Origin: a virus
Lineage: Duplodnaviria; Caudoviricetes
Direction: 5' to 3' (one strand)
Length of the DNA stretch: 59,580 nucleotides
IMG/VR virus record: IMGVR_UViG_3300046167_000203
Span: 1 to 59,580 of that record
The position numbers and the translations under genes were made by a program. Positions 22,236 through 46,642 of the stretch are shown piece after piece; within the stretch, counting starts at the first letter, position 1; each line of letters starts with the position of its first letter. The notes below the pieces were generated by a model, which had not been told where the DNA came from, did no database searches, and saw only the letters and a program-made list of their open reading frames with translations.

Positions 22236-22712
22236 TATCAGACACTCCAGACACCTATCAATTTTATAATATAATAAAAAAAAAATAAAAATTTGTAAAG
22301 TTAATACTCAAAAACTAAGGGAGTAGGTTCCCCACACACACGCAGTTGCGATGGAACCAAATCGGGGGTCGATTTTTCTAGGCGGGGTGGGTCAATTTTT
22401 TATTTGTAAATTTAAGCGGGAATAGTGGCAAATAGGACTAGCTATCCTATGTGTGGCGGGCGGTATCACACAGTCAGCAACAGTTACAGAGGATTAAATA
22501 TTAGTTGTGTCCTAATTTGTGACATTATTGGTGTCTGACTGTGTCTAATGTCTGAATGTCTGACATTATTTAAACTTTTCCTGAAATTTTTTTATTCAGC
22601 CTGAAATTTTTTTAATGATCAGACTTTGGCTATAACATTAGGTTTATAATAATGATATGTGCAAGATTAGATTAAAAAGTTAGATAATTGCACATAACAC
22701 CAATTTAATCTC

Positions 22713-22742
22713 TTGACAAAAATAGGGTTTTCAAATTACACT
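22713..22742 (+). promoter_or_regulatory. Sigma70-type early promoter
   Basis: TTGACA-N18-TACACT. Confidence 0.55.
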
Positions 22743-22983
22743 CTACGAGTGTTTGACAGACAGAGGAGAAATAAAGGTTTTTAAGGACTGACCATCCAAC
22801 CCGCAGAATGAGGTAACTGCTTTGATAACCGCCACTTTAGGTTTATGTACGATCCAAAAATTCTGACTACTAGCATGGGTAAATAGCTAGCCACCGCAGA
22901 TTAAGAAATTCAAGTTAAGTTGGTGCAAAACACGATCCACTCCTAAGACTTGAAATTGTTTTTAATCACTCCAAACAAATTAA

Positions 22984-23013
22984 TTAGGGGGCAATTCTTT
23001 TATTGCCCCTTAA
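22984..23013 (+). other. GGGGCA hairpin 1 (cassette element)
   Basis: 12-bp stem TTAGGGGGCAAT/ATTGCCCCTTAA directly 5' of the hammerhead. Confidence 0.75.
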
Positions 23014-23015
23014 AA

Positions 23016-23067
23016 AACTGTAGTTGAATGTAATTCAGCCTGATGATCTCAAAAGAGTGAAACAGTT
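23016..23067 (+). ncRNA. Hammerhead ribozyme HH1, type III
   Basis: Stem III AACUG/CAGUU, GUA cleavage triplet (after 23022), stem I GUUGAA/UUCAGC, CUGAUGA core, stem II u-CUC aaaa GAG-u, GAAA. Confidence 0.9.
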
Positions 23068-23093
23068 AACTGACAGATTGAGGAGTTTCAATA

Positions 23094-23402
23094 ATGTACA
23101 AGAAATTAAATCAAGACGAAATCAAGTTACTTAGGCTTTTATCTGATGCTTATAACTTTGGAAATATTGCGGATGTAGATAGCAAAACAGATAAGGAGTT
23201 TGGTGGTAAATTTGTTGGCAACTATGAAACAATGAATTTAGTAAATGAATTAGATCATTATCTAGTTGCTCGAATTTGTAATCCAATATCTAAAATTATA
23301 ATCTCAATACTTGGTCAAGAGTTACATGATGATTGGATCAATGGATCAAACTATGATGTAGATCAGCTAATAAAATTAACAGATAGTGAGGGAGCAATAT
23401 AA
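23094..23402 (+). CDS. Early hypothetical protein
   Basis: 102 aa, GAGGAG RBS. Confidence 0.75.
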   Translation: MYKKLNQDEIKLLRLLSDAYNFGNIADVDSKTDKEFGGKFVGNYETMNLVNELDHYLVARICNPISKIIISILGQELHDDWINGSNYDVDQLIKLTDSEGAI

Positions 23403-23764
23403 TGAAATTAAATAAAATATATGACCATAGAAATATGGGACAATTAGATGATGGTTATCCATTGAGTATATGGATTGAATGTACTGCTAAAGATGGTGCT
23501 GAATATAAAGGTTGGTATCATCCAACAGATGAATGGAAAACTTTTATTCCTAAAAGTTTAAGTGGGAGAAAAAGACCACTTTATGACAAAGGTTTTTATT
23601 TTCACCAATCTAAATTGGCATCAGGGAAAACTTGCTCAAGAAAAGTTTCAGTTAAGATACAAAAAACTTTAATAGATTTAATTCATCAAAATCTAGCATC
23701 AGTAACTGATTATGGAATAATGTGGAATAAAATTCAAAGTGATAAAATCAATACAAACAATTAA
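23402..23764 (+). CDS. Early hypothetical protein
   Basis: 120 aa, TAATG translational coupling, GGAG RBS. Confidence 0.75.
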   Translation: MKLNKIYDHRNMGQLDDGYPLSIWIECTAKDGAEYKGWYHPTDEWKTFIPKSLSGRKRPLYDKGFYFHQSKLASGKTCSRKVSVKIQKTLIDLIHQNLASVTDYGIMWNKIQSDKINTNN

Positions 23765-23774
23765 AACTAGACAT

Positions 23775-23810
23775 GGGGCAGTATTTTTTTATTGCCCCTT
23801 TTCAATTTTT
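23775..23810 (+). terminator. GGGGCA hairpin 2, terminator-like
   Basis: GGGGCAGTA/TATTGCCCC stem followed by a U-rich tract. Confidence 0.6.
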
Positions 23811-23868
23811 TACTGATAATCGAATGTGTTATTCGATCTGATGATTGCGAAAGCATGAAATCAGTAAA
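23809..23868 (+). ncRNA. Hammerhead ribozyme HH2, type III
   Basis: Stem III UUUACUGA/UCAGUAAA, AUA triplet (cleavage after 23818), stem I AUCGAAU/AUUCGAU, CUGAUGA, stem II u-UGC gaaa GCA-u, GAAA. Confidence 0.9.
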
Positions 23869-23890
23869 CTGACAGACATGGAGAAAGTAA

Positions 23891-25360
23891 ATGCTTAAAT
23901 TTACAAATGAACAAAGGACTATGGTTCTAGGTGCAATTAGATCAGAATTGATCAATCAGCCACATTTAAAGCCGTCTAAAGGTGTTAACCTTTTGACCAA
24001 AGCGGAATGGATACAATTAGCGGAAGATTTGGGAATTGATTTAAATAACTTTGGGACTGTAGTTTCACAAAATATTGGTCAACAAGTTAGACAAGCTAAC
24101 CCGCCCAAGGTTGTAGCTAATCCAATTGGTCAGCCTGATTTAAAAGTGTCAGGCATAGACAAACAGTTAAATAATATTATGGGTTTGCCCGTTAAAGATT
24201 TAAGGGATCAAATTAATGATCTATTAATTTTTAAAAATAATCCGCCCATAACTGAGAAGATTGTAAAAGTTTCTGATGGTTCAGTTTCAGAAATTGGATT
24301 TCCTGAGACAGAGATTTTGCCAATCAATAAGGTTAGGTCTGAAACGGGTTCTAAACTATTTGGTTTTAGATCATTCGCAGATAAAAGTTTTGATATCTAC
24401 AATGATCCAAGGTCTCCCGTAGTTGATGAAAATTACACACCTCAAAAAGAAGTTTTAGAAATGTTCCTGAGTTGTGCATCTAATAAAGATGGAAGAATAC
24501 CTGATAATATATTTTTGTATGGAAAGGCGGGTACGGGAAAAACATCACTACCTAGATGGTTTTGTGCTAAGACGGGTAGGCAGTTCATTGCCATTACGGG
24601 AAATGCTGATCTAAGTATTGATCAGTTTTTTGGGAGTTTTGGTGCTAAGAATGGATCAACATATTGGCAAGATGGACTTTTATTAAAAGCAGTTAAACAA
24701 CCTTATACAGTTTTATTAATTGATGAAATTGCAAGAATTCCACAAAATATTTTAATTGCTTTAAATGGTGTTCTTCAAGATCGTGAATATATAATACCTG
24801 AGACGGGCGAAAGGATACCTTTTGCGGAGGGTGTTGTTATTGTAGGTGCTGATAATACAAATGGTCAGGGCGATCTGACGGGTCAATTCTCATCAGCGGT
24901 TCAAATGGATAGTTCTACACTTAGTAGATTTGCGGTATCTCTTGAGGTCTCATATCCTAAACCATCTGTGGAAAGTAAAATCTTGCAGAATAAAACGGGT
25001 ACGGGTCAAAGGCTTTGCGACAAAATTGTAGAGTTTATTAACCTTTGTAGAGATGCAAATACTAGAGGAGATGCTCCAACACTTGCTCCAAATTTTAGAA
25101 ATACAGTTTCATGGATTAACAGATTAGTTGATGGAATTGATCCTAAGATTTCTTTAATGGCTTGTATGGGCAATTCACTTGATCCATCTGATAGGGAATT
25201 GTTATCTCAATTATTTAATACTCATATTGATCCTAAGATTATGAAAATATTAGTAGTTGATGGAGAATTGCCCGCTGAAGAAATTCAGACAGAACAAGAT
25301 CAGACAGTAGACACAGAAGAAGACACGTCTGAAGATACTGAAAAGAAAATGCCGTATTAA
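23891..25360 (+). CDS. MoxR/CbbQ/CobS-like AAA+ ATPase
   Basis: GKAGTGKT Walker A, LLIDE Walker B, ADNTNGQGD, STLSRF. Confidence 0.9.
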   Translation: MLKFTNEQRTMVLGAIRSELINQPHLKPSKGVNLLTKAEWIQLAEDLGIDLNNFGTVVSQNIGQQVRQANPPKVVANPIGQPDLKVSGIDKQLNNIMGLPVKDLRDQINDLLIFKNNPPITEKIVKVSDGSVSEIGFPETEILPINKVRSETGSKLFGFRSFADKSFDIYNDPRSPVVDENYTPQKEVLEMFLSCASNKDGRIPDNIFLYGKAGTGKTSLPRWFCAKTGRQFIAITGNADLSIDQFFGSFGAKNGSTYWQDGLLLKAVKQPYTVLLIDEIARIPQNILIALNGVLQDREYIIPETGERIPFAEGVVIVGADNTNGQGDLTGQFSSAVQMDSSTLSRFAVSLEVSYPKPSVESKILQNKTGTGQRLCDKIVEFINLCRDANTRGDAPTLAPNFRNTVSWINRLVDGIDPKISLMACMGNSLDPSDRELLSQLFNTHIDPKIMKILVVDGELPAEEIQTEQDQTVDTEEDTSEDTEKKMPY

Positions 25361-25368
25361 AATTTTTT

Positions 25369-25403
25369 AACTGCTCCAATATTTTTTTATTGGGGCAGTT
25401 TTT
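25369..25403 (+). terminator. GGGGCA hairpin 3 (inverted orientation), terminator-like
   Basis: AACTGCTCCAATA/TATTGGGGCAGTT followed by TTT. Confidence 0.6.
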
Positions 25404-25407
25404 ACTT

Positions 25408-25459
25408 CCACCTGATGAGACCTTTTGCATGGTCGAAACATAATTTTTTTATGTCGTGG
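25408..25459 (+). ncRNA. Hammerhead ribozyme HH3, type I
   Basis: Stem I CCAC/GUGG, CUGAUGA, stem II GACC/GGUC, GAAA, stem III CAUAA/UUAUG, canonical GUC triplet (cleavage after 25455). Confidence 0.92.
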
Positions 25460-25513
25460 TAGCTACCTTAGACAGACTGACTATCATAACACACAAACAA
25501 GAGGAGCATTTTT

Positions 25514-27550
25514 ATGCATAATATTATTGCATGTGAATTAGTTTCAGCGGTTGAGAAAAATACTTTATCAGCTTTGAAATATGTAACTGATTTAAAACTC
25601 AAGAAATTAAATATTAAGTGGGGCGGTTATACTGCATCCACTAGTTGGGAATATAATGACAAGAATGAATTAATTTCTAATATTAATTTTCCACCAATCA
25701 AAGCTGATGCCAAGATTACTAATTATATGGCTGAGGTTTATACGGGTTTTGCCTTACATGAGATAGGGCATAATCTCTGCACTCAAAAAGATGTTTGGAA
25801 TAAAGCAGTAGCCTTGGAGAGAAGAGGTCAGGTTGGAATTACAAGACTTTTAAATGCCTTGGAAGACCCTAGACAAGAAAAAGAATTATTGTCTAGATGT
25901 CATTTTGAGGGTGCTAAAAATGTTCTTGAAAAGTTAACCGCTTGGGCAGTTGATGAAAGTATCAAGAATGGTTTTAAAGCTGATGATCCTAGAAATTTTT
26001 CATACTGCTTAAACATCTTGGCTTATATCGATATGTGCGGGTATAGTGTCCCGTCAATAGGTTCTGCTGAAGATTTGTTAGTATCTAGCGGTAAACTTAG
26101 ACATGACCTAGAAACGGCTTTAATCAAGTTAAAAGCATGTAAAAATACTCAAGATGTTTTAGACTTATGCATTGAGTTGATGGGGCAGTATTCAAACCAA
26201 AACCAAAATCAAAGCAATCAGGGTATGGGTGTTCCTGAGAAATCTGAAGATGGGTCTGAAAGTTCTGAAGATAAATCTGAAGATGGTTCTGAAAGTTCTG
26301 AAGATGGTTCTGAAAGTTCTGAAGATAAATCTGAAGATGGTTCTGAAAGTTCTGAAGATGGTTCTGAAAGTTCTAAAGATAAATCTGAAGATGGTTCTGA
26401 AAGTTCTGAAGATGGTTCTGAAAGTTCTGAAGATAGTTCTGAAAGTTCTTCATCATCTCAAAATACTGTCAATGTTGATCGATCAGGAGAAGAAGAGCAG
26501 TCAGGTGGTTCTATATCTATAGATTTATCTGATCAGTCTTTTAAGAATAAAGAAGATTATCTACAAGAAGATGCTAAAAATAATCCTGATAAAAATGTTG
26601 ATGGAGATAGACATTCTAGAAATGAAGATTTAAAAGCAGAAACTTACAATGTTAATCAGATGGTCGATTGTGATGATGAACATTTATCTAGACGTTTAGA
26701 TAATAAACTCAAATCAGTTGATAGAGCATTAAAATTAGTTAATGTTTCTGATTGCTCTCAAACTTTATCTAGAATTCTTAAAAATCCTGATAGACGTGGG
26801 TCTAAAAGACATAGAGACAGAGGTAAATTAGATGTTAGGAAATTAGGGAAATTATGTACTAATACTCCTAATATGTTTTATCAGCCTTGGAAACAAAAAG
26901 GCACTAAAACTGCCGTATCATTGTTGATTGATACATCATCATCTATGAGAGATAGAGATTGGGGCAACATAAGAGTTAACAATGCTAAGGAAAGTATAAA
27001 CTTAGCAATGATTTTGGGTAATGCTTTGCATAAAGTTCAAGTAAAATATGCAGTAGGTTGTTATCCTTATGCGGAGACACAAAGAGGTCAGGTTGTTTCA
27101 CTATCTGAGGGTACTGAGTATTATGATGACCCTTACACTTTACTGAAAGATCATGACCATAATTGGATCAAGTCTAAAAAGTTTATTGCATCTCAACACG
27201 GTAAGGCGGGCGGTGGAACACCTACCCATCAAGCTATGATGGCTGAGGGTCTTAGGCTTAGGAAAAGGTCTGAAGATCGTAAGGTTATGATTATTATAAC
27301 TGATGGAGCACCTAACTCAATTAAGCGAACCCAACAAGCCAAAAAGATTATGGCTAAATGGGGAATTGAGGTTATTGGTCTGATCTTATGTCTTTACAAA
27401 ATCTATGCTCACATAGACCCACAACAACAAAAAAGACTAGATGAGTTTGTAAAAGATTTTGATGGTTGCTTTGATCATTTCGTAGTTGAGGGATCAGCTA
27501 AAGACATGATTAAAAAAGGTCTTCACGATCTAAACAAAATACTTCGATAA
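25514..27550 (+). CDS. CobT-like protein: N-terminal zincin-like domain, acidic repeat linker, C-terminal vWA domain
   Basis: ALHEIGH...LLNALED.R.E; MIDAS LLIDTSSSM, GGTPT, IITDG; partner of the upstream AAA+ gene. Confidence 0.9.
   Translation: MHNIIACELVSAVEKNTLSALKYVTDLKLKKLNIKWGGYTASTSWEYNDKNELISNINFPPIKADAKITNYMAEVYTGFALHEIGHNLCTQKDVWNKAVALERRGQVGITRLLNALEDPRQEKELLSRCHFEGAKNVLEKLTAWAVDESIKNGFKADDPRNFSYCLNILAYIDMCGYSVPSIGSAEDLLVSSGKLRHDLETALIKLKACKNTQDVLDLCIELMGQYSNQNQNQSNQGMGVPEKSEDGSESSEDKSEDGSESSEDGSESSEDKSEDGSESSEDGSESSKDKSEDGSESSEDGSESSEDSSESSSSSQNTVNVDRSGEEEQSGGSISIDLSDQSFKNKEDYLQEDAKNNPDKNVDGDRHSRNEDLKAETYNVNQMVDCDDEHLSRRLDNKLKSVDRALKLVNVSDCSQTLSRILKNPDRRGSKRHRDRGKLDVRKLGKLCTNTPNMFYQPWKQKGTKTAVSLLIDTSSSMRDRDWGNIRVNNAKESINLAMILGNALHKVQVKYAVGCYPYAETQRGQVVSLSEGTEYYDDPYTLLKDHDHNWIKSKKFIASQHGKAGGGTPTHQAMMAEGLRLRKRSEDRKVMIIITDGAPNSIKRTQQAKKIMAKWGIEVIGLILCLYKIYAHIDPQQQKRLDEFVKDFDGCFDHFVVEGSAKDMIKKGLHDLNKILR
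26240..26449 (+). repeat. Coding tandem repeat (21-nt SEDGSES unit; 54-nt higher-order unit, about three copies)
   Basis: TCTGAAGATGGTTCTGAAAGT reiterated almost perfectly. Confidence 0.95.
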
Positions 27551-27557
27551 AATTTTA

Positions 27558-27587
27558 TAGTGGGGCAGTTTTAGAATTGCCCTACTA
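27558..27587 (+). other. GGGGCA hairpin 4 (cassette element)
   Basis: TAGTGGGGCAGTT/AATTGCCCTACTA stem abutting the hammerhead. Confidence 0.75.
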
Positions 27588-27641
27588 ACCACCTGATGAG
27601 ACCCTTTAGCAAGGTCGAAACATTTATGTCGTGGTAGCTAA
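27588..27641 (+). ncRNA. Hammerhead ribozyme HH4, type I with possible loop II pseudoknot
   Basis: Stem I ACCAC/GUGGU, CUGAUGA, GACC/GGUC, GAAA, short stem III, GUC (cleavage after 27630); loop II UUAGC complements the 3' tail GCUAA. Confidence 0.9.
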
Positions 27642-27695
27642 TTAATATCACAAGTTGACAGACTTAACACACAATCAAACTAATGGAGTTTCATT

Positions 27696-28265
27696 ATGAA
27701 TAATGAAAATAATTTAAATCTTTATGAGGTCACTACTAATAGACTTCAAAAAGTTAAAGCGGGTCGTTTTGTCCTTTCAGTATGGAGAGGAAAGACTGCT
27801 TATAAAGATGATGTAATCAAATGTTTTTTACCTGATGACGATCCTAGTTATGAGGACAGATTTGCTATAATTGACGTTAAACCTCTTTGGATTGAAAAGA
27901 AAAATCTTAAATATGTAAGGTCATTATCTGAAAAAGAAATAAAGCTATTAAATGATCACAATTTAATTAAAAGTGACAAAGCAGATGACATCTTTATTTA
28001 TGGTAAATTTATAAAAGAAAGTGAAAAGGCTCTCTTGATTAAGTTTGCTAATAAAATTGATGTTTGGATTGCTAAATCCCTAATCATTAATGATAGAATA
28101 TATAATCTAAAAAATCGTGAAGATATTTGTTTTGAATTTCCTAGATGGCTAGTTAATGACAAGTTAGGGAAAGACATAGCTGACAAGTTTGCTGATGCTA
28201 AAACTATTATCTGTGAAAACTTATTGTACAACCATCCTAAATTATGGGGAGGTGCTAATGAGTAA
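27696..28265 (+). CDS. Early hypothetical protein
   Basis: 189 aa, GGAG RBS. Confidence 0.75.
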   Translation: MNNENNLNLYEVTTNRLQKVKAGRFVLSVWRGKTAYKDDVIKCFLPDDDPSYEDRFAIIDVKPLWIEKKNLKYVRSLSEKEIKLLNDHNLIKSDKADDIFIYGKFIKESEKALLIKFANKIDVWIAKSLIINDRIYNLKNREDICFEFPRWLVNDKLGKDIADKFADAKTIICENLLYNHPKLWGGANE

Positions 28266-28482
28266 GATTAAAAAATTTCTAATCTTTATGTCTGTGATCT
28301 ATTTCTTTTTTGGGTTCGCAATTCTGGATCTGGTTGAGACAAATATTGCTTTATCCCAACCTACTGATTGGATCATGTGGGCAATATCAACTATGTTTAT
28401 TCTAGTTGGCATTGTCTTGCCCATCATCGTAATTGAAAGTGAATATTCTTTTAAGAGGTGGAGCAATGGGAACAGAAAATAA
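28258..28482 (+). CDS. Small two-TM membrane protein
   Basis: MSKIKKFLIFMSVIYFFFG..., two hydrophobic segments; GGAGG RBS gives the start at 28258. Confidence 0.65.
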   Translation: MSKIKKFLIFMSVIYFFFGFAILDLVETNIALSQPTDWIMWAISTMFILVGIVLPIIVIESEYSFKRWSNGNRK

Positions 28483-28915
28483 AATACCATCTGTGCCTGA
28501 TGAACTTTTAAGAAAAAGATTTTCTAAAAAATCTAGCCACGCAGGTAATACAAAAGCATTTCCAATTGAGGACATTAGACAGACACAGACAACGATCACG
28601 TCTGATCAACTTCGTGTCTGTCTTTTAGCCTTGGATATGTCTAGTAAAGAACTCTGCGGATTGTTCAAAGTTAATGACCAAGTTGTTAGAAATTGGTTGA
28701 ACAGTCGAACAAGTATACCAAAAGGTATTTCAGATTATCTAAGATTAAAAGTATCCATGAGGATCAGAGCCTTATCTATATCAACGGGTACTCCCGTCAG
28801 TTTAGATGAGGATTTACCATCTAGGATTCCAAGTGTTCGCAGTCTATCTGCGATCGAGACAATTCTACAAAACTTAAAACATTACTTACTTTATGAAAGG
28901 AACGACAATGAATAA
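28466..28915 (+). CDS. XRE-type HTH DNA-binding protein
   Basis: LRVCLLALDMSSKELCGLFKVNDQVVRNWLNSRTSIP HTH pattern. Confidence 0.7.
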   Translation: MGTENKIPSVPDELLRKRFSKKSSHAGNTKAFPIEDIRQTQTTITSDQLRVCLLALDMSSKELCGLFKVNDQVVRNWLNSRTSIPKGISDYLRLKVSMRIRALSISTGTPVSLDEDLPSRIPSVRSLSAIETILQNLKHYLLYERNDNE

Positions 28916-29321
28916 TCAAAACTATTCAAAAATGGAAACCAATGTAGTTCAATCTCTTGATCCACAATTTCCACATTTAAAACTAACCCATACCATGTGG
29001 GATAAAAATAATATTGATGCGGGAGTATTTGAAAGGTTCGCATCTTTGTACGGTGTTGACTTTAAGACTATGACAAATGGAGATAAGCAGACTTTGTCCG
29101 CAGTCTTTAGGTTTAATGGAGTTGATACTCCAACCAAGGTTAACTTCTATAAGACTAAGGCTCGTGGAGATAAAAGATTTAGTATCCAATCCATCAAGCA
29201 AAAGTCTAAAGCGGGAGACATCATTGCTTTAACTTATGAGCATGATCCTCAGACAAATAAAAATATTATTATTTTAAACTTATCTGCACAGGCAGAAAAC
29301 AGGGAGAAAATTTATGGATAA
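28908..29321 (+). CDS. Stand-alone domain resembling the N-terminal region of MvaI/BcnI-family nucleases
   Basis: LTHTMWDKNNIDA...VNFYKTKARGDKRFSI...GDII pattern; no nuclease domain follows. Confidence 0.5.
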   Translation: MNNQNYSKMETNVVQSLDPQFPHLKLTHTMWDKNNIDAGVFERFASLYGVDFKTMTNGDKQTLSAVFRFNGVDTPTKVNFYKTKARGDKRFSIQSIKQKSKAGDIIALTYEHDPQTNKNIIILNLSAQAENREKIYG

Positions 29322-29547
29322 GATAAAAGCACTACATACAGAGAGAGACAATCTCATGTCTGCAATAGATCAGAAAGATGATTTGATTAACAAGATTAAA
29401 TCATGGTTGATAGATGAGGTTAAATATCAGCAACCTATCATTGATGGAGAAGAAATTCTTACTGATGGTACTGATGATATCTGCGAGGGCAGACACGAAT
29501 GTGCTGAGGGTTTACTTAATCAAATAGAAGAATGGGAGAATAAATAA
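29314..29547 (+). CDS. Small hypothetical protein
   Basis: 77 aa, GGGAG RBS, coupled. Confidence 0.7.
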   Translation: MDKIKALHTERDNLMSAIDQKDDLINKIKSWLIDEVKYQQPIIDGEEILTDGTDDICEGRHECAEGLLNQIEEWENK

Positions 29548-29744
29548 TGGGTAATCAATCTTACTTTAAAATAGATGTGTTTGACTACGTTGATGAAGAA
29601 GAAAATGTAGAAGAAAATGGAAAACGTCTTTACATAGACATACAAAGATTAGCCTCTGATATTGAGAATGATTTTGAAAAACACCCCGCCTATAAAGACC
29701 ATATAGTTGAAATTGTTGGTGTAGAAAGATGGGAGAATGCATAA
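29547..29744 (+). CDS. Small hypothetical protein
   Basis: 65 aa, TAATG coupling. Confidence 0.7.
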   Translation: MGNQSYFKIDVFDYVDEEENVEENGKRLYIDIQRLASDIENDFEKHPAYKDHIVEIVGVERWENA

Positions 29745-29902
29745 TGAAAACTTTTGAAATAGAAGTATGGAAAGAAGTTACTGAAGTATGGGTAGTTAGA
29801 GCAGACAACAAAGAAGATGCAAAAGCAAACTATACTGACGGACATGAAAAAATATCTCAAACTGAATCAATAGATTTTAAAAGAATAGAGGAGTTAAAAT
29901 AA
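29744..29902 (+). CDS. Small hypothetical protein
   Basis: 52 aa MKTFEIEVWKEVTEVWVVRADNKEDA..., coupled on both sides; below the track cutoff. Confidence 0.7.
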   Translation: MKTFEIEVWKEVTEVWVVRADNKEDAKANYTDGHEKISQTESIDFKRIEELK

Positions 29903-30066
29903 TGGCTAAAGAAAAAATGGGATGTGATTACTGCGATCACATCGAATATTACGAGGATGAAAATAGTTTTTTCCAAGGCGAAATGTTTGGTTTGAAAGAC
30001 GATAGTGTTTCGTGTCCTGATTGTTTAGAAAAGCAACCAACCTCAAATCTTGTATGGGAGAATTAA
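29902..30066 (+). CDS. Small Zn-finger-like protein
   Basis: 54 aa with CDYC and CPDC; GAGGAG RBS. Confidence 0.65.
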   Translation: MAKEKMGCDYCDHIEYYEDENSFFQGEMFGLKDDSVSCPDCLEKQPTSNLVWEN

Positions 30067-30068
30067 TA

Positions 30069-30377
30069 ATGGGTTTACATTATGATACTAGAAAATGTGA
30101 TCTAGAAAATGTTGGTAAGGATATTATTGAAACTATGATCCATATGACAATGTTAATAGAGGTTGGACATTTTACAGAAAAAAATATCCAAGAAATCTAT
30201 TATAGAATTTGTATGATGGAAATGTTTCATGGCAGTCCATTCTTATTTGATGGTAAAACTAATAAATCTATATTAGCAGACTTAGAATTAGTTAAAAAAT
30301 TTATTGGATTAAAAACCAATGTAACTAATGTCTCAATTAAAAAATGGTTTGCTAAAAGGTTGAAAAATCATGGATGA
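30069..30377 (+). CDS. Small hypothetical protein
   Basis: MGLHYDTRKCD..., GGGAG RBS. Confidence 0.7.
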   Translation: MGLHYDTRKCDLENVGKDIIETMIHMTMLIEVGHFTEKNIQEIYYRICMMEMFHGSPFLFDGKTNKSILADLELVKKFIGLKTNVTNVSIKKWFAKRLKNHG

Positions 30378-30528
30378 ACTTCTTATCCTTGCCTATGATC
30401 TCAAGCATCAATTAGATTGCTATGAGTATAAAGCAGATACATATGTGGATGGTGTGGAGACACACCTTTCCGCTTATGAACGTATTCAAAAAATCATTCA
30501 CCTGCTTGAAAAAAATAATAAATCGTAA
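30370..30528 (+). CDS. Small hypothetical protein
   Basis: 52 aa MDELLILAYDLKHQ..., overlaps the previous stop; ends just before HH5. Confidence 0.55.
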   Translation: MDELLILAYDLKHQLDCYEYKADTYVDGVETHLSAYERIQKIIHLLEKNNKS

Positions 30529-30529
30529 A

Positions 30530-30595
30530 TGTTGAAACATCCAAGTTTACTTGGGTGTCTGTGTCTTGTGACTGAGACATACTGACGAGGCAGTT
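30530..30595 (+). ncRNA. Hammerhead ribozyme HH5, type II
   Basis: GAAA, stem III CAUCCAAG/CUUGGGUG, GUC (cleavage after 30559), stem I UGUGUCU/AGACAUA, CUGACGA, weak open stem II UGUU/GGCA; loop I GACUG can pair with the tail CAGUU. Confidence 0.75.
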
Positions 30596-30632
30596 CCTCG
30601 ATTTATTAGTTGACAGACTATGGAGAAACACA

Positions 30633-30947
30633 ATGGCTAATTACAGAATGGAAATGTATTACAATTCCAATCCGCAATTTGTAAGCATGATCAAAACATT
30701 TGTCCAAGATATTATAGACAAGGATGAAAACTTTGATAATGCATATGAATACTTTGAATATGATGGGAAGTTTTTTGACGTTCATATATTCAAAGATCAA
30801 TCACACATAAAGGCATATGTCTATTGGACTATCTTTAAGTTTATAGATCAGCAAGACCTTTTCATAACTCAAGAACATGACGTTATGCCACTTGGTTACT
30901 TCCAGGGAAGAGAAGAGGGGGCAGACTATGTACAAGCACAAGCCTAA
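30633..30947 (+). CDS. Hypothetical protein
   Basis: 104 aa, GGAG RBS. Confidence 0.7.
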   Translation: MANYRMEMYYNSNPQFVSMIKTFVQDIIDKDENFDNAYEYFEYDGKFFDVHIFKDQSHIKAYVYWTIFKFIDQQDLFITQEHDVMPLGYFQGREEGADYVQAQA

Positions 30948-31149
30948 AGAAAAGTCTTGGTCTACTGCACAACTATTCCATGTCTACTTAAATGAAATGA
31001 GATTTCCAATTTGTGGACTCAGACATGTCTTTGCAGTTGTAGGTTATAAATGGGTAAGAATATTTGTCCCATTTCATAACATCAAATTTAAAGTTAATCG
31101 ATCCATTTGGAACAAAATGGATGTCAAACAATTAGAGGGAGAAAGCTGA
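30928..31149 (+). CDS. Small hypothetical protein
   Basis: MYKHKPKEKSWSTAQLF...; likely start after the GAGGGG RBS. Confidence 0.6.
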   Translation: MYKHKPKEKSWSTAQLFHVYLNEMRFPICGLRHVFAVVGYKWVRIFVPFHNIKFKVNRSIWNKMDVKQLEGES

Positions 31150-31373
31150 TGGCTAGATATCATGGGGATGCCTTTGACGAGGCATGTGAAGAAAACTTAG
31201 GTCATACCAATTGGGGATATGCGACACTCAAAGACCTTGAAAGAATTGTAGCTAAAGAAAAAGCTAGAATACTTAGAACGGGTAAGGGAAGTGAGGGCAT
31301 TGGCTTTGGCGATGACATCGAATGTTTAGTTATTTTCTATAATGAACCTTTAGAGGAGGATGAAGATGAGTAA
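31149..31373 (+). CDS. Small hypothetical protein
   Basis: MARYHGDAFDEACEENLGHTNWGY, TGATG coupling. Confidence 0.65.
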   Translation: MARYHGDAFDEACEENLGHTNWGYATLKDLERIVAKEKARILRTGKGSEGIGFGDDIECLVIFYNEPLEEDEDE

Positions 31374-31626
31374 AAAAGATTACACAGTCAAGTTTGACGT
31401 TAACATTTGGTTTGATAATAATTTTTCTATTGAGGCTAGTTCTCAAGAAGAGGCTGAAGAAAAAGCTAAACTGTTAATGAAAGAAATTCAAGATGACTTT
31501 AATAATACAAAGCCTACAAACGGAAGTGTATTTCACACATCTAAATCTAAAAAATTTCTTGGGGAATTAGATCAATGGTTCTTTGGGGATTGTCAATTAG
31601 ATACTGTTTATGTTGAGGAGGATTAA
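31360..31626 (+). CDS. Small hypothetical protein
   Basis: 88 aa with IEASSQEEAEEKA motif common in phage small proteins. Confidence 0.7.
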   Translation: MKMSKKDYTVKFDVNIWFDNNFSIEASSQEEAEEKAKLLMKEIQDDFNNTKPTNGSVFHTSKSKKFLGELDQWFFGDCQLDTVYVEED

Positions 31627-31863
31627 ATGACTACACAATTTGTGACGAAAGCAGACTATGTTTATAAAAGAAAAAATGGTGGCACAACTTTATGCTATGG
31701 CACTCTAGAAGAGGACAGTAATTTTGTTCTCGCATGTGACAATGAAAATCTAGATGGTACTTGGGCAGAAAGAGACCCCGAAAAGCAGAAATCTTGGAAA
31801 GATGTTTGCGAACATTTAGAAAAGGTTTATGACGAAAACATCGAGCAAATAGAGACTTGCTGA
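31627..31863 (+). CDS. Small hypothetical protein
   Basis: 78 aa, GAGGAGG RBS. Confidence 0.7.
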   Translation: MTTQFVTKADYVYKRKNGGTTLCYGTLEEDSNFVLACDNENLDGTWAERDPEKQKSWKDVCEHLEKVYDENIEQIETC

Positions 31864-33183: not shown

Positions 33184-33834
33184 ATGTACAATACTAATAA
33201 GATACTAGATTTTAAAAAATCTGAAAGAAATCATAAGCAAAATTTAAAACCTCAAGCGGATGGGGATTACTGTGAAAAAGATTACATTGATATAATTGAC
33301 AATTTGACTACTAAAAAAACATCAGACTATAGGTTTGAACTTCCACCAAAGGATCAATCCAATACGTCTCAAGAAATTCAAGAACATTTACGAAGAGAAT
33401 ATGTCATAGCTTTATTGACTACAGAAATGAAGATGCACAAGGCTAGACAAACTAGAATGGATACTGATATTCAACGATACTTTAATTCGTCACCGCTACG
33501 AAATGCTTTTTCAAGGTGGATGGTCTATGGCTACTTAGTTAATAAGCCTTATAACATAACCACTTTATGTGATGAAATGGGTGCGGATCGAAAAACAATA
33601 AGCCTTATGATTAAAGAGTGTGAAGCTGAGGGTTGGATACAAACTATTAAATCTAATGGTCAGTTATTTTGCATAGCATCTCCGCCACTAGTATCTAAGA
33701 TGGAAGAATATGTATCGTGGCGAAGAAAATTAGCTAAAGATACAATCGGTGTAGCATTCTCTGCATTGAAAGCCTTTGAAGATTTAATGAGTATTGACAC
33801 CACATCAGATAGTAAATATTCAACTGATATCTAG
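33184..33834 (+). CDS. Winged-helix (MarR-like) DNA-binding protein
   Basis: ITTLCDEMGADRKTISLMIKECEAEGWIQ wHTH pattern; AAGGAG RBS. Confidence 0.6.
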   Translation: MYNTNKILDFKKSERNHKQNLKPQADGDYCEKDYIDIIDNLTTKKTSDYRFELPPKDQSNTSQEIQEHLRREYVIALLTTEMKMHKARQTRMDTDIQRYFNSSPLRNAFSRWMVYGYLVNKPYNITTLCDEMGADRKTISLMIKECEAEGWIQTIKSNGQLFCIASPPLVSKMEEYVSWRRKLAKDTIGVAFSALKAFEDLMSIDTTSDSKYSTDI

Positions 33835-37187: not shown

Positions 37188-38819
37188 ATGCAAAACAAGA
37201 TACACTTAGCTCTTGAACCCAACATGCGATTGCATATATCTGGTTCAAAAGATCCAAAGATCACTCAACTATTTAGTAAAATACCGTTCTGTAATTTCCT
37301 GCTGCAAGAAAAAAAGTGGGTAATTAAAATGGAACGTATGAGTAATGAACAATGTCTAACTGTCTATACTCATATAACTAAAACTTTTCATGATGACATA
37401 AAGAACATTGGTCTTATCATGGATGTTAACCAACCAATGCTTGATCACATGAACCAATGTTCAATGTATTATAAAGCAAAGAACTTAGAACTTAAAAAAA
37501 GAGTTACTAATGATTGGTCTGAGAGCCTCGATAAGTTTGGAGTTAAACCATATGACCATCAGATAGATGCCGTTTGTCATTGGATTGATAACAACGGCAG
37601 ATCATTACTTGGACATGAGATGGGTACGGGTAAAACTATTTCCGCAATCCTTTCTATTAATGCAATCAAAGCTAAGAGAGTTGTAATCTTCACACCCGCT
37701 AGTGTGATGATGCAATGGGAAAAAGAAATTAAAAGATTGTTGCCTGATTACACACTTTATATATACCCTAACATCAAAGGAGTTGGAGATGACGGAAGAG
37801 AGATATTACTCGTATCATATGCGAGAGCCGAGCCTTACAAAAAGTCGCAAAGCAAAGCCACTTGGAAAGCTGAGTACATTATCTGTGACGAATGCCATTA
37901 CATTAAAAACCCCAAGGCAAAGCGGACTAAAGCGATTGTACAATTGGCTAAGACTTCTGATTACTTCATAGGTTTATCAGGCACACCAATAATAAATAGA
38001 CCCGTAGATTTATATTCCCCCTTAAACATAATTTCACCTAGTGAGTTCAATAATTGGTATCAGTTTACCAAGGCTTATTGCAATGGTCACATGGGTAAAT
38101 TTGGATATGTTGCAGACGGATTGTCTAGGAAAGTTGAATTACATTCTAAACTATCCCGTCATATGCACAGAGTTACAAAGGATGACTGCCTCGACCTGCC
38201 CCCTAAAGTGAGGTCGGTCATCCCTTGTAAGTTAAACTTTAATCAGGACTATTATGAAACATTCCAAGAGGCTTATGCGGAACTTGGTGTACATAAATCC
38301 GTTGAGGCATTGTCTTGGATTAAGGACTTCATGGAATCTAATAACGAGAAGTTAGTTGTCTTCACTCAACATGTAAGACCCGCCGAGTTAATTTTTTATA
38401 ACTTAGCAACCGAGGGCAAGAAACATAAACAAGTTGACTTACTTACGGGTCAGACAACCAAGCAAGATAGAGATGCTTACATATCTCGTTTCCTAGATCC
38501 AAAGTCTGACAAGAGGATACTTATACTTACGTTAGGTGTTGGATCAACAGGTTTAAATTTACAGAAAGCTAACAATGTCTTGATGGTTGAGACATCATTT
38601 TCTCCGATGGAGATGATGCAAGCTGAAGATAGGGTACACAGAAATGGTCAGACTAAATCATGTTCTATAAATTACTTGGTTGCTCAAGATACCTTTGATG
38701 AAAAACTTTATAAACTTTTAGAAAAGAAAATGGGTATGAGTAATGCCGTAGTTGATGGCGATTTCAAAAATGATCTCAATGTTTTTGAGGAACTTAAAAA
38801 GGAGATAGCAAATGGCTAG
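37188..38819 (+). CDS. SNF2/HARP-like SF2 helicase
   Basis: HEMGTGKT, DECH, LSGTP, GLNLQ, QAEDRVHRNGQ. Confidence 0.92.
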   Translation: MQNKIHLALEPNMRLHISGSKDPKITQLFSKIPFCNFLLQEKKWVIKMERMSNEQCLTVYTHITKTFHDDIKNIGLIMDVNQPMLDHMNQCSMYYKAKNLELKKRVTNDWSESLDKFGVKPYDHQIDAVCHWIDNNGRSLLGHEMGTGKTISAILSINAIKAKRVVIFTPASVMMQWEKEIKRLLPDYTLYIYPNIKGVGDDGREILLVSYARAEPYKKSQSKATWKAEYIICDECHYIKNPKAKRTKAIVQLAKTSDYFIGLSGTPIINRPVDLYSPLNIISPSEFNNWYQFTKAYCNGHMGKFGYVADGLSRKVELHSKLSRHMHRVTKDDCLDLPPKVRSVIPCKLNFNQDYYETFQEAYAELGVHKSVEALSWIKDFMESNNEKLVVFTQHVRPAELIFYNLATEGKKHKQVDLLTGQTTKQDRDAYISRFLDPKSDKRILILTLGVGSTGLNLQKANNVLMVETSFSPMEMMQAEDRVHRNGQTKSCSINYLVAQDTFDEKLYKLLEKKMGMSNAVVDGDFKNDLNVFEELKKEIANG

Positions 38820-40182: not shown

Positions 40183-40227
40183 TTGACAGACTGAAGAAAC
40201 ACACAAACAAACGAAAGGAACATTCAA

Positions 40228-45341: not shown

Positions 45342-45632
45342 ATGTCGTCAAGTTTTTATACTGTTAAAAATGTAGCTAACAAATTGAACCTTGCAATTCC
45401 TACAGTTTACCTGTGGATTAATCAAGGAAAATTTGATGGTTGTGTTTACCGCTTTAATAAATCTTGGCGATTTAAGACTGACAGACTTAATCAATGGATA
45501 AAGAGAGGAGAACAAGAATGGGAAGTAACTATAGAAACGGACAATGGTATGCCGACTTTAGGATCAATGGTAAGAGATACCGACCTCCAATTAATGCAAG
45601 TTCTAAAAGGCAAGCTAATGAGAAGTCAATAA
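45342..45632 (+). CDS. xis: Excisionase (MerR-like HTH)
   Basis: FYTVKNVANKLNLAIPTVYLWINQGKF...RFNKSWRF; overlaps the integrase. Confidence 0.8.
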   Translation: MSSSFYTVKNVANKLNLAIPTVYLWINQGKFDGCVYRFNKSWRFKTDRLNQWIKRGEQEWEVTIETDNGMPTLGSMVRDTDLQLMQVLKGKLMRSQ

Positions 45633-46642
45633 TTGAACGAAAGAAAAAGATAACAGAACTTGCTAAGACACAGTCTGACATTCCTTTTTCTGAGGCAATG
45701 TTAAAGTTCCTTAATAACTACTGTGGTTTAACATACACTACTAATGGTGAACTTAAATTTCAAAGAAGAGCAATGAAAGAAAGTTCAGCTAAAAGATACC
45801 TTCAAAGTATCAAGATGGTTACCCCACACTTTCAAGGCAGAATGTTGAAAGATATAACCAGACAGGACATTGCAGCTTATGTTGAATGTCGAAGAGTAGG
45901 TACAAAAGATATTAAGCCTTGTAATGATCCCACTATTATAAGAGACCTAAGTATGCTTGGTAAAATGTATGAATATATAATAAAGAATAGTACATGGGAT
46001 GGGCATAACATAGTCAGATCTTTTGATAGAAAGACACTACAAGAAAGTAAAGACAGGATAAGAAGTCTTGATGATTATGAGAAAAAGTCTGTGTTAGATA
46101 CTGCAAAGAAAAGTAAGAACCCAGATCTATATCATCAAATTCAAATTGCCTTACTTACAGGTATGAGATGGAACGAGCAGTTCTCTTTATTAAGAACAGA
46201 CTTTGAACGTACTAACTATGGACCTCAATTTGTATTGAGAGATACTGTAACGAAGAATGGTAAAATTAGGGTAGTGCCTTTGTGTGATGAAGCACTAGAC
46301 ATAGTAGAAATATTATTAAAAAAACCTGCTAGTTTTAGTGGTCATCTATTTTATAACCCAGACACAGGACATAGGGTAAATTCTAATCGCTCGTCTTGGG
46401 AAACATGTCTGAAAAATAGTGGTGTTACAGACTTTAGTTGGCACGATTTAAGACACACTTATGCCACGGATGAGATAAGAAAAGGTATGCCTATTTATAC
46501 TTTATCTAAGTTGTTGGGACACTCAAATGTAACCATCACAGAGAAGTATGCTCATCTATTTACGGAAGACTTACATGAGGCAAAAAGAAAAGTTGCCACC
46601 AAAAGTGCCACACACAGTGGAGAATATGGTGTAAGTGCTTGA
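45518..46642 (+). CDS. int: Tyrosine integrase
   Basis: TGMR, TKNGKIR.VPL, HDLRHTYA, LLGH, Y; GAGGAG RBS before the ATG at 45518. Confidence 0.95.
   Translation: MGSNYRNGQWYADFRINGKRYRPPINASSKRQANEKSIIERKKKITELAKTQSDIPFSEAMLKFLNNYCGLTYTTNGELKFQRRAMKESSAKRYLQSIKMVTPHFQGRMLKDITRQDIAAYVECRRVGTKDIKPCNDPTIIRDLSMLGKMYEYIIKNSTWDGHNIVRSFDRKTLQESKDRIRSLDDYEKKSVLDTAKKSKNPDLYHQIQIALLTGMRWNEQFSLLRTDFERTNYGPQFVLRDTVTKNGKIRVVPLCDEALDIVEILLKKPASFSGHLFYNPDTGHRVNSNRSSWETCLKNSGVTDFSWHDLRHTYATDEIRKGMPIYTLSKLLGHSNVTITEKYAHLFTEDLHEAKRKVATKSATHSGEYGVSA

What the first reader, a model, noticed from the sequence alone, without database searches (positions are those of the whole stretch)
22984..30632. Early operon punctuated by five hammerhead ribozymes in a repeated hairpin-ribozyme-motif-RBS cassette
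Seen: every large intergenic gap in the early region holds a sense-strand hammerhead with an intact CUGANGA/GAAA core and NUH site. HH1 23016-23067 and HH2 23809-23868 are type III, HH3 25408-25459 and HH4 27588-27635 are type I, and HH5 30530-30595 is type II. Four are preceded by a GGGGCA hairpin, and all are followed by GACAGA and a Shine-Dalgarno. Known: hammerheads leave 5'-OH and 2',3'-cyclic phosphate ends, 5'-OH RNAs resist 5'-monophosphate-dependent decay, and T7 cuts its early mRNA with host RNase III. Inference: a host-independent self-processing system that cuts the polycistronic early RNA into stabilised, insulated mRNAs. Three topologies in equivalent slots argue for selection on cleavage rather than simple duplication. 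Single hammerheads in phage DNA are known, but I do not know this cassette architecture as a described system.
Basis: partly seen in the sequence, partly recalled or inferred. Interest (0 to 1): 0.95.

Follow-up and report, generated by a model that had tools for sequence, protein, structure and literature searches.

The report
Five hammerhead ribozymes punctuating phage operon
An uncultured marine phage carries five well-conserved self-cutting hammerhead RNAs in the gaps of one operon, which probably chop its long message into separately protected pieces; this layout has been known in phages since 2011, so it is a clean new example and not a new system.

Summary
A strict hammerhead descriptor finds exactly five hits in the 59.6-kb phage genome. 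The same slots are occupied in 20 related marine loci. Stems show compensatory changes, and the HH4 slot shows the catalytic-core covariation C3-G8 to U3-A8. None reaches an Rfam gathering score.

The upstream GGGGCA hairpins are real and conserved. The GACAGA word is real, but it is a genome-wide leader motif, also found before genes without ribozymes, and one related clade lacks it.

The idea that clustered type I, II and III hammerheads cut phage polycistronic RNA into gene-length mRNAs is in print (Perreault 2011, PMC3088659, passages read), as is the U10.1-U11.1 variant. This scan has already noted such arrays on other DNA (413 notes).

No cleavage evidence could be obtained; RNA-library contigs were uninformative.

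Verdict: genuine, selected hammerheads; a new member of a known kind; the stabilisation and insulation role is inferred only.

The parts
22713..22742 (+). Best sigma-70-like promoter match upstream of the operon (TTGACA, 18 nt, TACACT). It is followed at 22754 by a sixth copy of TGACAGAC. The roughly 270 nt up to HH1 have no ORF of 40 aa or more.
   Evidence: consensus match only, no evidence of function
22984..23013 (+). Hairpin 1 (GGGGGCAAU/AUUGCCCC core, 12 pairs). It is followed by UUAAAAA, not by a U tract.
   Evidence: (I14); conserved in relatives
23016..23067 (+). HH1, type III hammerhead. Cleavage after A23022 (GUA). Stem II is 3 bp above a U10.1-U11.1 mismatch.
   Evidence: model R1, 53.8 bits; no Rfam Hammerhead_3 match
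23071..23093 (+). Leader of gene 1: TGACAGA at 23071-23077, GGAG at 23082, start codon at 23094.
23775..23798 (+). Hairpin 2 (GGGGCAGUA/UAUUGCCCC). Terminator-like here (UUUUCAAUUUUUU follows), but the U tract is not kept in relatives.
23809..23868 (+). HH2, type III hammerhead. Cleavage after A23818 (AUA). Has U10.1-U11.1. It is a paralogue of HH1.
   Evidence: R1, 92 bits; the predicted minimum-energy fold is the hammerhead fold
23870..23890 (+). Leader of the AAA ATPase gene: TGACAGAC at 23870-23877, GGAG at 23880, start codon at 23891.
25369..25400 (+). Hairpin 3 (13 pairs, GGGGCAG on the 3' arm). UUUUU follows here, but not in 5 of 11 relatives.
   Evidence: 100% of 117 cells paired, 2 pairs changed on both sides
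25405..25462 (+). HH3, type I hammerhead with a canonical core and G10.1-C11.1. Cleavage after C25455 (GUC).
   Evidence: R2, 78.2 bits; Rfam HH9 19.5 bits
25471..25513 (+). Leader of the vWA gene: GACAGAC at 25471, GGAG at 25503, start codon at 25514.
27558..27587 (+). Hairpin 4 (13 pairs, GGGGCAG on the 5' arm). No U tract. It abuts HH4.
27586..27637 (+). HH4, type I hammerhead and paralogue of HH3. Cleavage after C27630. The orthologous slot in four relatives has the U3-A8 core variant.
   Evidence: Rfam Hammerhead_1 26 bits
27656..27695 (+). Leader of the next gene: TGACAGAC at 27656-27663, GGAG at 27685, start codon at 27696.
30530..30592 (+). HH5, type II hammerhead. Stem II is open (4 pairs, two of them G-U), stem III has 9 bp, stem I has 7-9 bp. 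Cleavage after C30559. No GGGGCA hairpin lies upstream.
   Evidence: (Hammerhead_II 28 bits)
30586..30600 (+). Hairpin CGAGG-CAGUU-CCUCG. It overlaps core positions C7-G10.2 of HH5, so it cannot form together with the active fold.
   Evidence: 20 of 20 cells paired, 1 change on both sides, not significant: 141 of 500 shuffles reach it
30611..30632 (+). Leader of the gene at 30633: TGACAGAC at 30611-30618, GGAG at 30622.

Best explanation
The five elements are genuine cis-acting hammerhead ribozymes: two type III, two type I and one type II. They are encoded in the sense strand of a + strand operon of a temperate, uncultured marine phage.

As the operon is transcribed, each ribozyme folds and cuts itself. 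The long RNA would then be divided into:
- an ORF-less leader;
- genes 1-2;
- the AAA (CobS-like) ATPase gene;
- the vWA (CobT-like) gene;
- a block of about ten small genes;
- the distal genes.

Every downstream piece starts with a 5'-OH that is predicted to lie in or next to a helix. That helix is stem I for types III and II, and a fold-back of GUGGUA onto UAUCA for type I. Every upstream piece ends with a 2',3'-cyclic phosphate just after a hairpin. That hairpin is the GGGGCA hairpin for type III and stem III for types I and II.

The likely pay-off is independence from host RNases and from neighbouring sequence, so that each gene unit has its own stability and a uniformly open ribosome site.

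Shown here: the motifs, their non-random occurrence, their conservation and their covariation. Inferred: cleavage in vivo, protection of the ends, and insulation.
For: - The descriptor gave 5 hits, all sense and all in gaps, against 0.027 expected.
- 42 descriptor hits occur in 20 related loci, all on the gene strand; there are none in the one distant locus, L027.
- Covariance models add 6 more type I sites and no extra type III sites.
- Type III: 203 of 203 cells paired, and 6 of 17 pairs changed on both sides.
- Type I: 94.7% of 188 cells paired and 93.3% of 252.
- Type II: 97.5% of 80 cells paired, with 3 stem I pairs changed on both sides.
- In the HH4 slot of L002, L004, L019 and L006 the core reads UUGAUAA or UUGAGAA. 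This is C3 to U together with G8 to A, the pair-preserving core covariation that Perreault 2011 reports as natural and active.
- H17 is never G, and N7 varies freely.
- The upstream hairpins are conserved with compensatory changes.
- In thermodynamic predictions the first 5 nt of the cleaved downstream RNA are mostly paired in 4 of 5 cases. Unpaired probability of the ribosome site is 0.62-0.77 after cleavage and 0.10-0.65 before.
- The gene content between the HH1 and HH2 cassettes differs among relatives, as expected for portable, context-independent units.
- Published precedent: triple arrays cleave in vitro, and in vivo in E. coli (PMC3088659, passages).
Against: - No element reaches an Rfam gathering score, and HH1 and HH2 get no Hammerhead_3 match at all.
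- HH1 and HH2 have a U-U mismatch at 10.1-11.1 and only 3 further stem II pairs. HH5 has a weak open stem II and a competing hairpin.
- The predicted minimum-energy fold is the hammerhead fold only for HH2.
- In low-depth contigs from RNA libraries, two records run across the HH1 site (X1 22767-23316; X2 22986-23166). These may be DNA or uncleaved RNA.
- The 5' fold-back of the type I products is not better than shuffles (5-66% of shuffles do as well).
- Type I and II products already end in stem III, so the extra hairpins before HH3 and HH4 are not explained by 3' protection.
- The ribosome-site accessibility figures are predictions on five sequences.
- 'Early' timing and the promoter are unverified.
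Confidence: 0.7

Rival explanations
1. The ribozymes are conditional switches rather than constitutive processors. Slow or structure-gated cleavage (U-U stem II in HH1 and HH2; the competing hairpin over C7-G10.2 in HH5; the upstream hairpins) would tune or shut down expression of the flanking genes, depending on Mg2+, temperature, ribosome traffic or a bound factor.
For: The alternative hairpin at 30586-30600 is kept in 4 of 4 distinct sequences, with one compensatory change, and it forms in the predicted minimum-energy fold. U10.1-U11.1 is invariant in 22 of 22 type III copies. Perreault 2011 suggests that slower phage variants might be regulated.
Against: The covariation for the alternative hairpin is not significant (141 of 500 shuffles reach it). 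HH3 and HH4 are canonical, fast-looking cores. No ligand pocket or aptamer-like extension was seen. According to Perreault 2011, U-U supports more activity than any other mismatch.
Confidence: 0.15
2. The hairpin-hammerhead units are chiefly recombination joints or selfish, duplicating modules. On this reading they persist because they flank swappable accessory genes, and cleavage has little value for the phage.
For: HH1/HH2 and HH3/HH4 are paralogous pairs. The slot between HH1 and HH2 holds at least 4 different gene sets in 6 relatives, and other relatives have a single chimeric cassette (slot-1 upstream sequence joined to a slot-2 hairpin or ribozyme). In L005 and L026 only the 3' arm of hairpin 1 is left, at a rearrangement point.
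Against: The catalytic core is kept intact, or changed only in a pair-preserving way, in every slot. The stems covary and the strand is always the sense strand. A mere recombination site would not need any of this.
Confidence: 0.07
3. The two near-identical type I ribozymes HH3 and HH4 excise the 2,175-nt vWA mRNA and re-ligate it into a circular RNA. This was a separate first-reader note in this scan.
For: In the window both have the same stem I (CCAC/GUGG), so the excised RNA's ends could rebuild a hammerhead. Perreault 2011 raised circular or spliced products as a possibility.
Against: In L002, L004, L019 and L006 the two slots differ at the pair next to the cleavage site (CCAU/AUGG in the HH3 slot, CCAC/GUGG in the HH4 slot). 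A hybrid hammerhead would therefore carry a C-A mismatch, and the two slots do not co-vary. Perreault 2011 looked for such products and found none.
Confidence: 0.04
4. The motifs are non-catalytic structured spacers, such as terminators, attenuators or RNase entry sites, that merely resemble hammerheads.
For: No Rfam gathering-level match. Terminator-like hairpins sit in two of the gaps.
Against: Invariance of the single-stranded core residues, H17 never being G, and the C3-G8 to U3-A8 covariation have no reason in a plain spacer. Chance expectation is 0.027 per genome.
Confidence: 0.03

Closest known systems
Clustered hammerhead ribozymes flanking single genes or short gene blocks in prophages and phages (Perreault et al. 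2011, PLoS Comput Biol, PMC3088659; passages read)
   Same: Several sense-strand hammerheads of mixed types I, II and III sit between genes of a phage operon. The flanked genes vary. The proposed role is processing of long phage transcripts into gene-length mRNAs. The natural U10.1-U11.1 and U3-A8 variants are both reported there.
   Different: Here there are five ribozymes of all three topologies in one operon of an uncultured marine phage lineage that has no cultured relative above 30% protein identity. Each type I and III unit is preceded by a conserved GGGGCA hairpin. I could not see that paper's figures or supplements, so I cannot say whether such hairpins, or these marine sequences, are already in its dataset.
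RiboJ-type synthetic ribozyme insulators (a hammerhead plus a 23-nt hairpin in front of the ribosome site; described in PMC7536230, passages read; original paper Lou et al. 2012, recalled)
   Same: A hammerhead just upstream of a ribosome site cuts off whatever lies upstream. This gives a defined 5' UTR, and in that synthetic system a more stable mRNA.
   Different: RiboJ is man-made and sits directly after a promoter, with its hairpin downstream of the ribozyme. Here the units are natural, lie between genes, the conserved hairpin is upstream, and three ribozyme topologies are used.
RNase III processing of the phage T7 early polycistronic mRNA (recalled textbook knowledge, no call)
   Same: A phage operon RNA is cut in the intergenic gaps into gene-length mRNAs whose ends carry stabilising hairpins.
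   Different: T7 relies on a host protein enzyme and double-stranded RNA sites. Here the RNA would cut itself and leave 5'-OH and cyclic-phosphate ends.
HHphage of haloviruses HF1 and HF2 (Perreault 2011, passage read)
   Same: A hammerhead lies a few nucleotides upstream of the first gene of an early polycistronic transcript, like HH1. The mapped 5' end of that transcript lies within three nucleotides of the cleavage site.
   Different: It is a single ribozyme with an atypical core insertion, in an archaeal virus from a high-salt habitat.

Membership tests
Hammerhead ribozyme (Rfam clan CL00010) | Conserved catalytic core: C3 U4 G5 A6 N7 G8 A9, G12 A13 A14, the A15.1-U16.1 pair, and H17 not G at the cleavage site | tested here: met
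   5 of 5 in the window. Invariant in 22 of 22 type III copies. Of 20 type I copies, 15 are canonical, 4 have the paired change U3-A8, and 1 has a one-base insertion after A9.
Hammerhead ribozyme (Rfam clan CL00010) | Three helices (I, II, III) around the core, supported by covariation | tested here: met
   Type III: 100% of 203 cells paired, 6 pairs changed on both sides. Type I: 94.7% of 188 cells, 2 pairs. Type II: 97.5% of 80 cells, 3 pairs. Slid controls pair at 21-54%.
Hammerhead ribozyme (Rfam clan CL00010) | Score at or above the gathering threshold of an Rfam hammerhead model | tested here: not met
   0 matches at gathering thresholds. Best scores: 28 bits against 37 (HH5), 26 against 34 (HH4), 19.5 against 52 (HH3). 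HH1 and HH2 have no match at E<=10. This is a curators' operational cut-off, not a biochemical criterion.
Hammerhead ribozyme (Rfam clan CL00010) | Consensus feature, usual but not obligatory: a Watson-Crick 10.1-11.1 pair (mostly G-C) closing stem II | tested here: not met
   HH3 and HH4 have G-C, HH5 has G-U, and HH1 and HH2 have U-U. U-U is kept in all 22 type III copies. Perreault 2011 reports natural hammerheads with U10.1-U11.1, and says this mismatch supports more cleavage than any other.
Hammerhead ribozyme (Rfam clan CL00010) | Site-specific self-cleavage giving 2',3'-cyclic phosphate and 5'-OH ends | not testable with these tools
   Only low-depth contigs of RNA libraries were available. 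They cannot show RNA ends.
Hammerhead ribozyme (Rfam clan CL00010) | Tertiary contact between stems I and II (loop-loop or pseudoknot) needed for fast cleavage at low Mg2+ | tested here: inconclusive
   Loop I (GUGUU) and loop II (GAAA, AAAA or UAAA) of the type III copies are conserved. By my own reading of the aligned sequences, a possible 4-bp loop I to tail pairing in HH5 (ACUG with CAGU) is not kept in L002 or L006.
Clustered phage and prophage hammerhead arrays (Perreault 2011) | Several hammerheads in gene orientation flanking single genes or short gene blocks of a phage genome, with variable gene identity | tested here: met
   Five lie in one operon of a phage that has terminase, portal, capsid and integrase genes. 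The gene content between HH1 and HH2 differs among relatives.
RiboJ-type ribozyme insulator | A hammerhead followed by an added hairpin, placed between the promoter and the ribosome site | tested here: not met
   The conserved hairpin lies upstream of the ribozyme, and four of the five units lie between genes. The resemblance is functional only.

The most novel reading that the evidence does not exclude
The units form a natural, portable 'end-capping insulator'. Whatever the ribozyme topology, cleavage leaves a hairpin-capped 3' end on the upstream mRNA and a helix-buried 5'-OH plus a uniformly open ribosome site on the downstream mRNA. Because the roughly 100-nt units are repeated, they would also serve as joints at which accessory genes are swapped in and out, each new gene being expressed independently of its context. 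That would make this a natural counterpart of synthetic ribozyme insulators, doubling as a gene-cassette boundary.
Probability: 0.3. Interest if true: 0.55.

Novelty: new member of a known kind. Interest (0 to 1): 0.35.

Why it matters
The biological role of bacterial and phage hammerheads is still called largely elusive in the 2019 review I read (PMC6765202, passages). This lineage offers a compact test case:
- five ribozymes of all three topologies in equivalent slots;
- orthologous slots with natural core covariation;
- conserved flanking hairpins;
- a variable-gene slot between two cassettes.

It could be cloned into a laboratory host to ask directly whether cleavage changes mRNA half-life, translation or gene-to-gene insulation. 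It does not reveal a new mechanism, and this scan has already recorded many similar and larger arrays.

Tried and rejected
- **Rfam.** A whole-window run at E<=10 found no hammerhead at all, although the 7.7-kb run did. The difference comes from filters and search size, so the blank is not evidence of absence.
- **blastn against cultured phages.** No match. Protein searches with the DNA polymerase and the AAA ATPase found only relatives below 30% identity. The phage therefore has no named relative, and the host stays unknown.
- **Scan of 185,579 species genomes with the ATPase alignment.** No prophage relative.
- **DNA pattern for the type I family in viral contigs.** 0 hits. I wrote the pattern with a wrong fixed spacing, so this blank means nothing.
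- **DNA pattern for the type III family.** It returned only the six contigs already found.
- **RNA evidence.** There were four marine RNA-library runs, all kept as contigs at depth 2-5. Some records cross the HH1 site and no record spans HH3, HH4 or HH5. DNA carry-over cannot be excluded, so nothing can be said about cleavage, and uncovered parts are not evidence.
- **Giant protein as a virion RNA polymerase, with the hairpins as N4-type hairpin promoters.** Rejected. The 2,577-aa protein has only weak tail-type hits, and the hairpin loops are 4-6 nt.
- **GACAGA as a -35 box (TTGACA).** Rejected. By my own reading of the sequence, no -10 element follows at 16-18 nt, and the ribosome site comes 2-30 nt later.
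- **GACAGA as a small GACA-loop hairpin.** By my own reading of the contexts printed, it fits the HH4 and HH5 copies and the copy at 40185 but not the HH1, HH2, 33162 or 37149 copies, so it is not general.
- **5' fold-back hairpin of the type I products.** It is present in 12 of 14 predicted folds, but it is no better than shuffled sequence.
- **Pseudoknot of HH5 loop I with the 3' tail.** By my own reading of the aligned sequences, it is not conserved.
- **Upstream hairpins as intrinsic terminators.** Only 2 of 4 have a U tract in the window, and the tract is not conserved.
- **Supplements of Perreault 2011.** They are closed. Its Dataset S1 and Figures 3 and 5 may already contain marine metagenome copies or similar hairpins.

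Full report
**What the window is.** The window is a complete 59,580-base virus record; CheckV rates it 100% complete. It is a phage. The - strand left of position 22236 carries terminase, portal and major capsid genes. It also has a helicase, a family A DNA polymerase, a ribonucleotide reductase and a primase, and an integrase at 45494-46642. No RNA polymerase gene was seen. The 2,577-aa protein gives only weak tail-type hits.

The finding lies in a + strand operon that starts after an 858-nt divergent gap. It has two small genes, then an AAA_5 (CobS-like) ATPase at 23891-25360, a vWA (CobT-like) protein at 25514-27550, and then about fifteen tightly packed small genes running to about 31863.

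There is no cultured relative. blastn found nothing, and protein identities are below 30%. Relatives come from marine metagenomes.

The four gaps of 100 nt or more between + strand genes from 23094 to 31863 each hold one hammerhead, and the fifth sits in the leader before gene 1.

Rfam does not call them. There were no matches at gathering thresholds and only sub-threshold matches for HH3, HH4 and HH5. HH1 and HH2 got nothing with Hammerhead_3. The likely reason is that HH1 and HH2 carry a U-U mismatch at 10.1-11.1 with only three further stem II pairs, and that HH5 has a weak open stem II.

**Are they more than look-alikes?** I fetched relatives with the ATPase as an unbiased anchor. This gave six viral contigs and fifteen metagenome contigs, fourteen of them close. 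Some of these are duplicates of one another.
- All 20 close loci carry hammerheads at the same slots: 42 descriptor hits, all on the gene strand. The one distant locus, L027, has none.
- A covariance model of the type III family found the same 22 copies and nothing else.
- A model of the type I family found 20 copies, six of which my descriptor had missed.

Those six are instructive. In the HH4 slot of L002, L004, L019 and L006 the core reads UUGAUAA or UUGAGAA, that is C3 to U together with G8 to A. C3 and G8 pair in the active site, and Perreault et al. 2011 report exactly this U3-A8 covariation in natural hammerheads. In the HH3 slot of L002 there is a one-base insertion after A9, of unknown effect. 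The sixth copy, in the HH4 slot of L015, has a canonical core but a mismatch in stem II.

Pair counts:

| Family | Cells paired | Pairs changed on both sides |
|---|---|---|
| Type III | 203 of 203 | 6 of 17, including all three stem II pairs |
| Type I | 94.7% of 188; 93.3% of 252 on the larger model-fitted alignment | 2 |
| Type II | 97.5% of 80 | 3, in stem I |

Partners slid by 1-3 columns pair at only 21-54%. N7 varies (U, C, A) and H17 is A, C or U but never G. I conclude that these are genuine hammerheads kept by selection on the catalytic fold.

**The rest of the 'cassette'.** The GGGGCA hairpins before HH1-HH4 are real and conserved:
- Slot 3: 117 of 117 cells paired, with C-G changed to U-A in 4 of 9 distinct sequences.
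- Slots 1, 2 and 4: 97.3% of 150 cells paired.

They are not convincing terminators. Only two of the four have a U tract in the window, and the tract is lost in several relatives. In slot 3 the GGGGCAG word lies on the 3' arm and elsewhere on the 5' arm, so the linear word GGGGCAGU(U) is shared as well as the hairpin. I have no explanation for that.

- TGACAGAC occurs 12 times in the genome against 1.94 expected; 0 of 100 shuffles reach that.
- It also precedes the ribosome sites of the genes at 37188, 40228 and 45494. The shorter TGACAGA precedes those of the genes starting near 33185 and 33915. None of these five has a hammerhead.
- It follows the best promoter-like site at 22713-22742.
- The L006 clade lacks it after all three of its hammerheads found by the descriptor.

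It is a general leader word of this phage's + strand genes, and another note of this scan already treats it.

**How it most likely works.** The sequence shows what each cut would leave.
- Types III and II (HH1, HH2, HH5) cut just before stem I. The downstream mRNA therefore begins with a 5'-OH at the foot of a hairpin.
- Type I (HH3, HH4) cuts at the 3' edge. The downstream mRNA then begins with GUGGUAG, which can fold back on a UAUCA(C/U) word 15-30 nt further on. This is seen in 12 of 14 predicted folds but is no better than shuffled sequence.

On the other side, type I and II products end in stem III, and type III products end 9-20 nt after the GGGGCA hairpin. HH5, the type II unit, is the one without a GGGGCA hairpin. 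That fits a role in 3' protection, but the hairpins before HH3 and HH4 are then redundant.

Partition-function predictions put the first five nucleotides of the cleaved RNA mostly in pairs for 4 of 5 units. They give a narrow range of ribosome-site accessibility after cleavage (0.62-0.77) against a wide range before (0.10-0.65). These are predictions on five sequences and nothing more.

5'-OH ends are poor substrates for RNase E and RNase J entry, which depends on a 5'-monophosphate, and terminal hairpins block exonucleases (both recalled textbook knowledge). [quoted passage not shown] On these grounds, processing into separately stable and insulated units is the best reading. Cleavage itself, and any effect on stability, remain untested.

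**A further observation that fits portability.** The stretch between the HH1 and HH2 cassettes holds different genes in different relatives:
- two unrelated genes in the window;
- one 77-81-aa gene in L004 and L022;
- that gene plus a 57-aa gene in L005;
- a 136-aa gene plus the 77-aa gene in L026;
- an unrelated 69-aa gene in L023.

Other relatives (L002, L014, L016, L017) have a single chimeric cassette directly before the ATPase gene. In L005 and L026 only the 3' arm of hairpin 1 remains, at a rearrangement point. The repeated cassettes thus mark a gene-swapping spot.

**Evidence on cleavage in nature.** Four marine RNA-library runs hold parts of the region, but only as low-depth contigs. 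Two contigs cross the HH1 site. They may be DNA carry-over or uncleaved RNA. Contigs cannot show RNA ends, so this neither supports nor refutes cleavage.

**Comparison with what is known.** Perreault et al. [quoted passage not shown] From the passages I read:
- The legend of their Figure 3 says that the hammerhead type (I, II or III) is indicated for each ribozyme of the clusters shown.
- Three triple arrays cleaved during in vitro transcription, and one also cleaved in E. coli.
- U10.1-U11.1 and U3-A8 are reported as natural variants.

The 2019 review by Weinberg, Weinberg and Hammann repeats the idea that such processing could give transcripts of different stability or translation efficiency, and says that the roles remain largely elusive (PMC6765202).

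My four literature searches found no paper on an upstream-hairpin-plus-hammerhead unit in phages. That is a statement about those searches only.

Earlier notes of this scan list 413 hammerhead-array findings in at least 373 genomes, some with 10-33 ribozymes.

**Rivals.**
- Conditional cleavage is possible. The competing hairpin over C7-G10.2 of HH5 is kept in 4 of 4 sequences, but the covariation is not significant.
- A purely selfish or recombinational role is unlikely, given the selection on the core.
- Circularisation of the vWA mRNA by HH3 and HH4 is disfavoured, because the two stem I sequences do not co-vary between the slots in four relatives.
- A non-catalytic spacer role does not explain the conserved single-stranded core.

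**Verdict.** I put about 0.9 on these being genuine hammerheads, about 0.7 on processing of the operon RNA, and well below that on the stabilisation and insulation purpose. Interest is moderate to low: a tidy, testable example of an arrangement known since 2011.

Noticed in passing
window 22754, 33161, 33883, 37148, 40184, 45479 (+); 32703, 34352, 36941 (-): (T)TGACAGA(C) is strongly over-represented: the 8-mer occurs 12 times against 1.94 expected. It sits 2-35 nt before the ribosome sites of many genes that have no hammerhead, often just after a -10-like AT-rich hexamer. It looks like a general 5'-leader word of this phage. The L006 clade lacks it.
   Followed up: partly
window 22749-23015: Between the best promoter-like site (22713-22742) and HH1 lie about 270 nt with no ORF of 40 aa or more, ending in hairpin 1. 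HH1 cleavage would release this stretch as a free hairpin-ended RNA. Repeated words occur in it (CCGCAGA twice).
   Followed up: no
window 23094-23764 and the same slot in L004, L005, L022, L023, L026: The gene content between the HH1 and HH2 cassettes differs among relatives: at least four different gene sets, and none at all in L002, L014, L016 and L017, which have a single chimeric cassette. The repeated cassettes mark a gene-swapping spot.
   Followed up: partly
L005 about 1100-1130 and L026 about 2320-2350: Only the 3' arm (CTGCCCC) of hairpin 1 is present, joined to unrelated upstream sequence. A rearrangement breakpoint lies inside the hairpin.
   Followed up: no
L002 11512-11570 (also L003, L018): The HH3-slot ribozyme has a one-base U insertion between A9 and G10.1 (CUGACGA-U-GAUC). 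Whether it is still active is unknown.
   Followed up: no
window 30586-30600: The hairpin CGAGG-CAGUU-CCUCG overlaps the HH5 core (C7 to G10.2). It is kept in all four distinct relatives, with one compensatory G-C to A-U change. It could be a post-cleavage fold or an off-state.
   Followed up: partly
window 22500-22575: A cluster of GTCTGA, GTCTAA and TGTCTGACA words (the reverse complement of the AGACA-type words) lies in the divergent control region. They could be operator or iteron sites.
   Followed up: no
window 26229-26460: The vWA protein contains a tandem acidic, serine-rich repeat (units of the SEDGSESSEDK type). RNA-library contigs show small length differences at 26411-26413.
   Followed up: no
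window 22988-22995, 23775-23782, 25392-25399, 27562-27569, 30587-30594: The linear word GGGGCAGU (GGGGCAAU in the first gap, GAGGCAGU in the HH5 gap) occurs in all five gaps, on the 5' arm, on the 3' arm or after the ribozyme. Something beyond hairpin formation may select for it.
   Followed up: no
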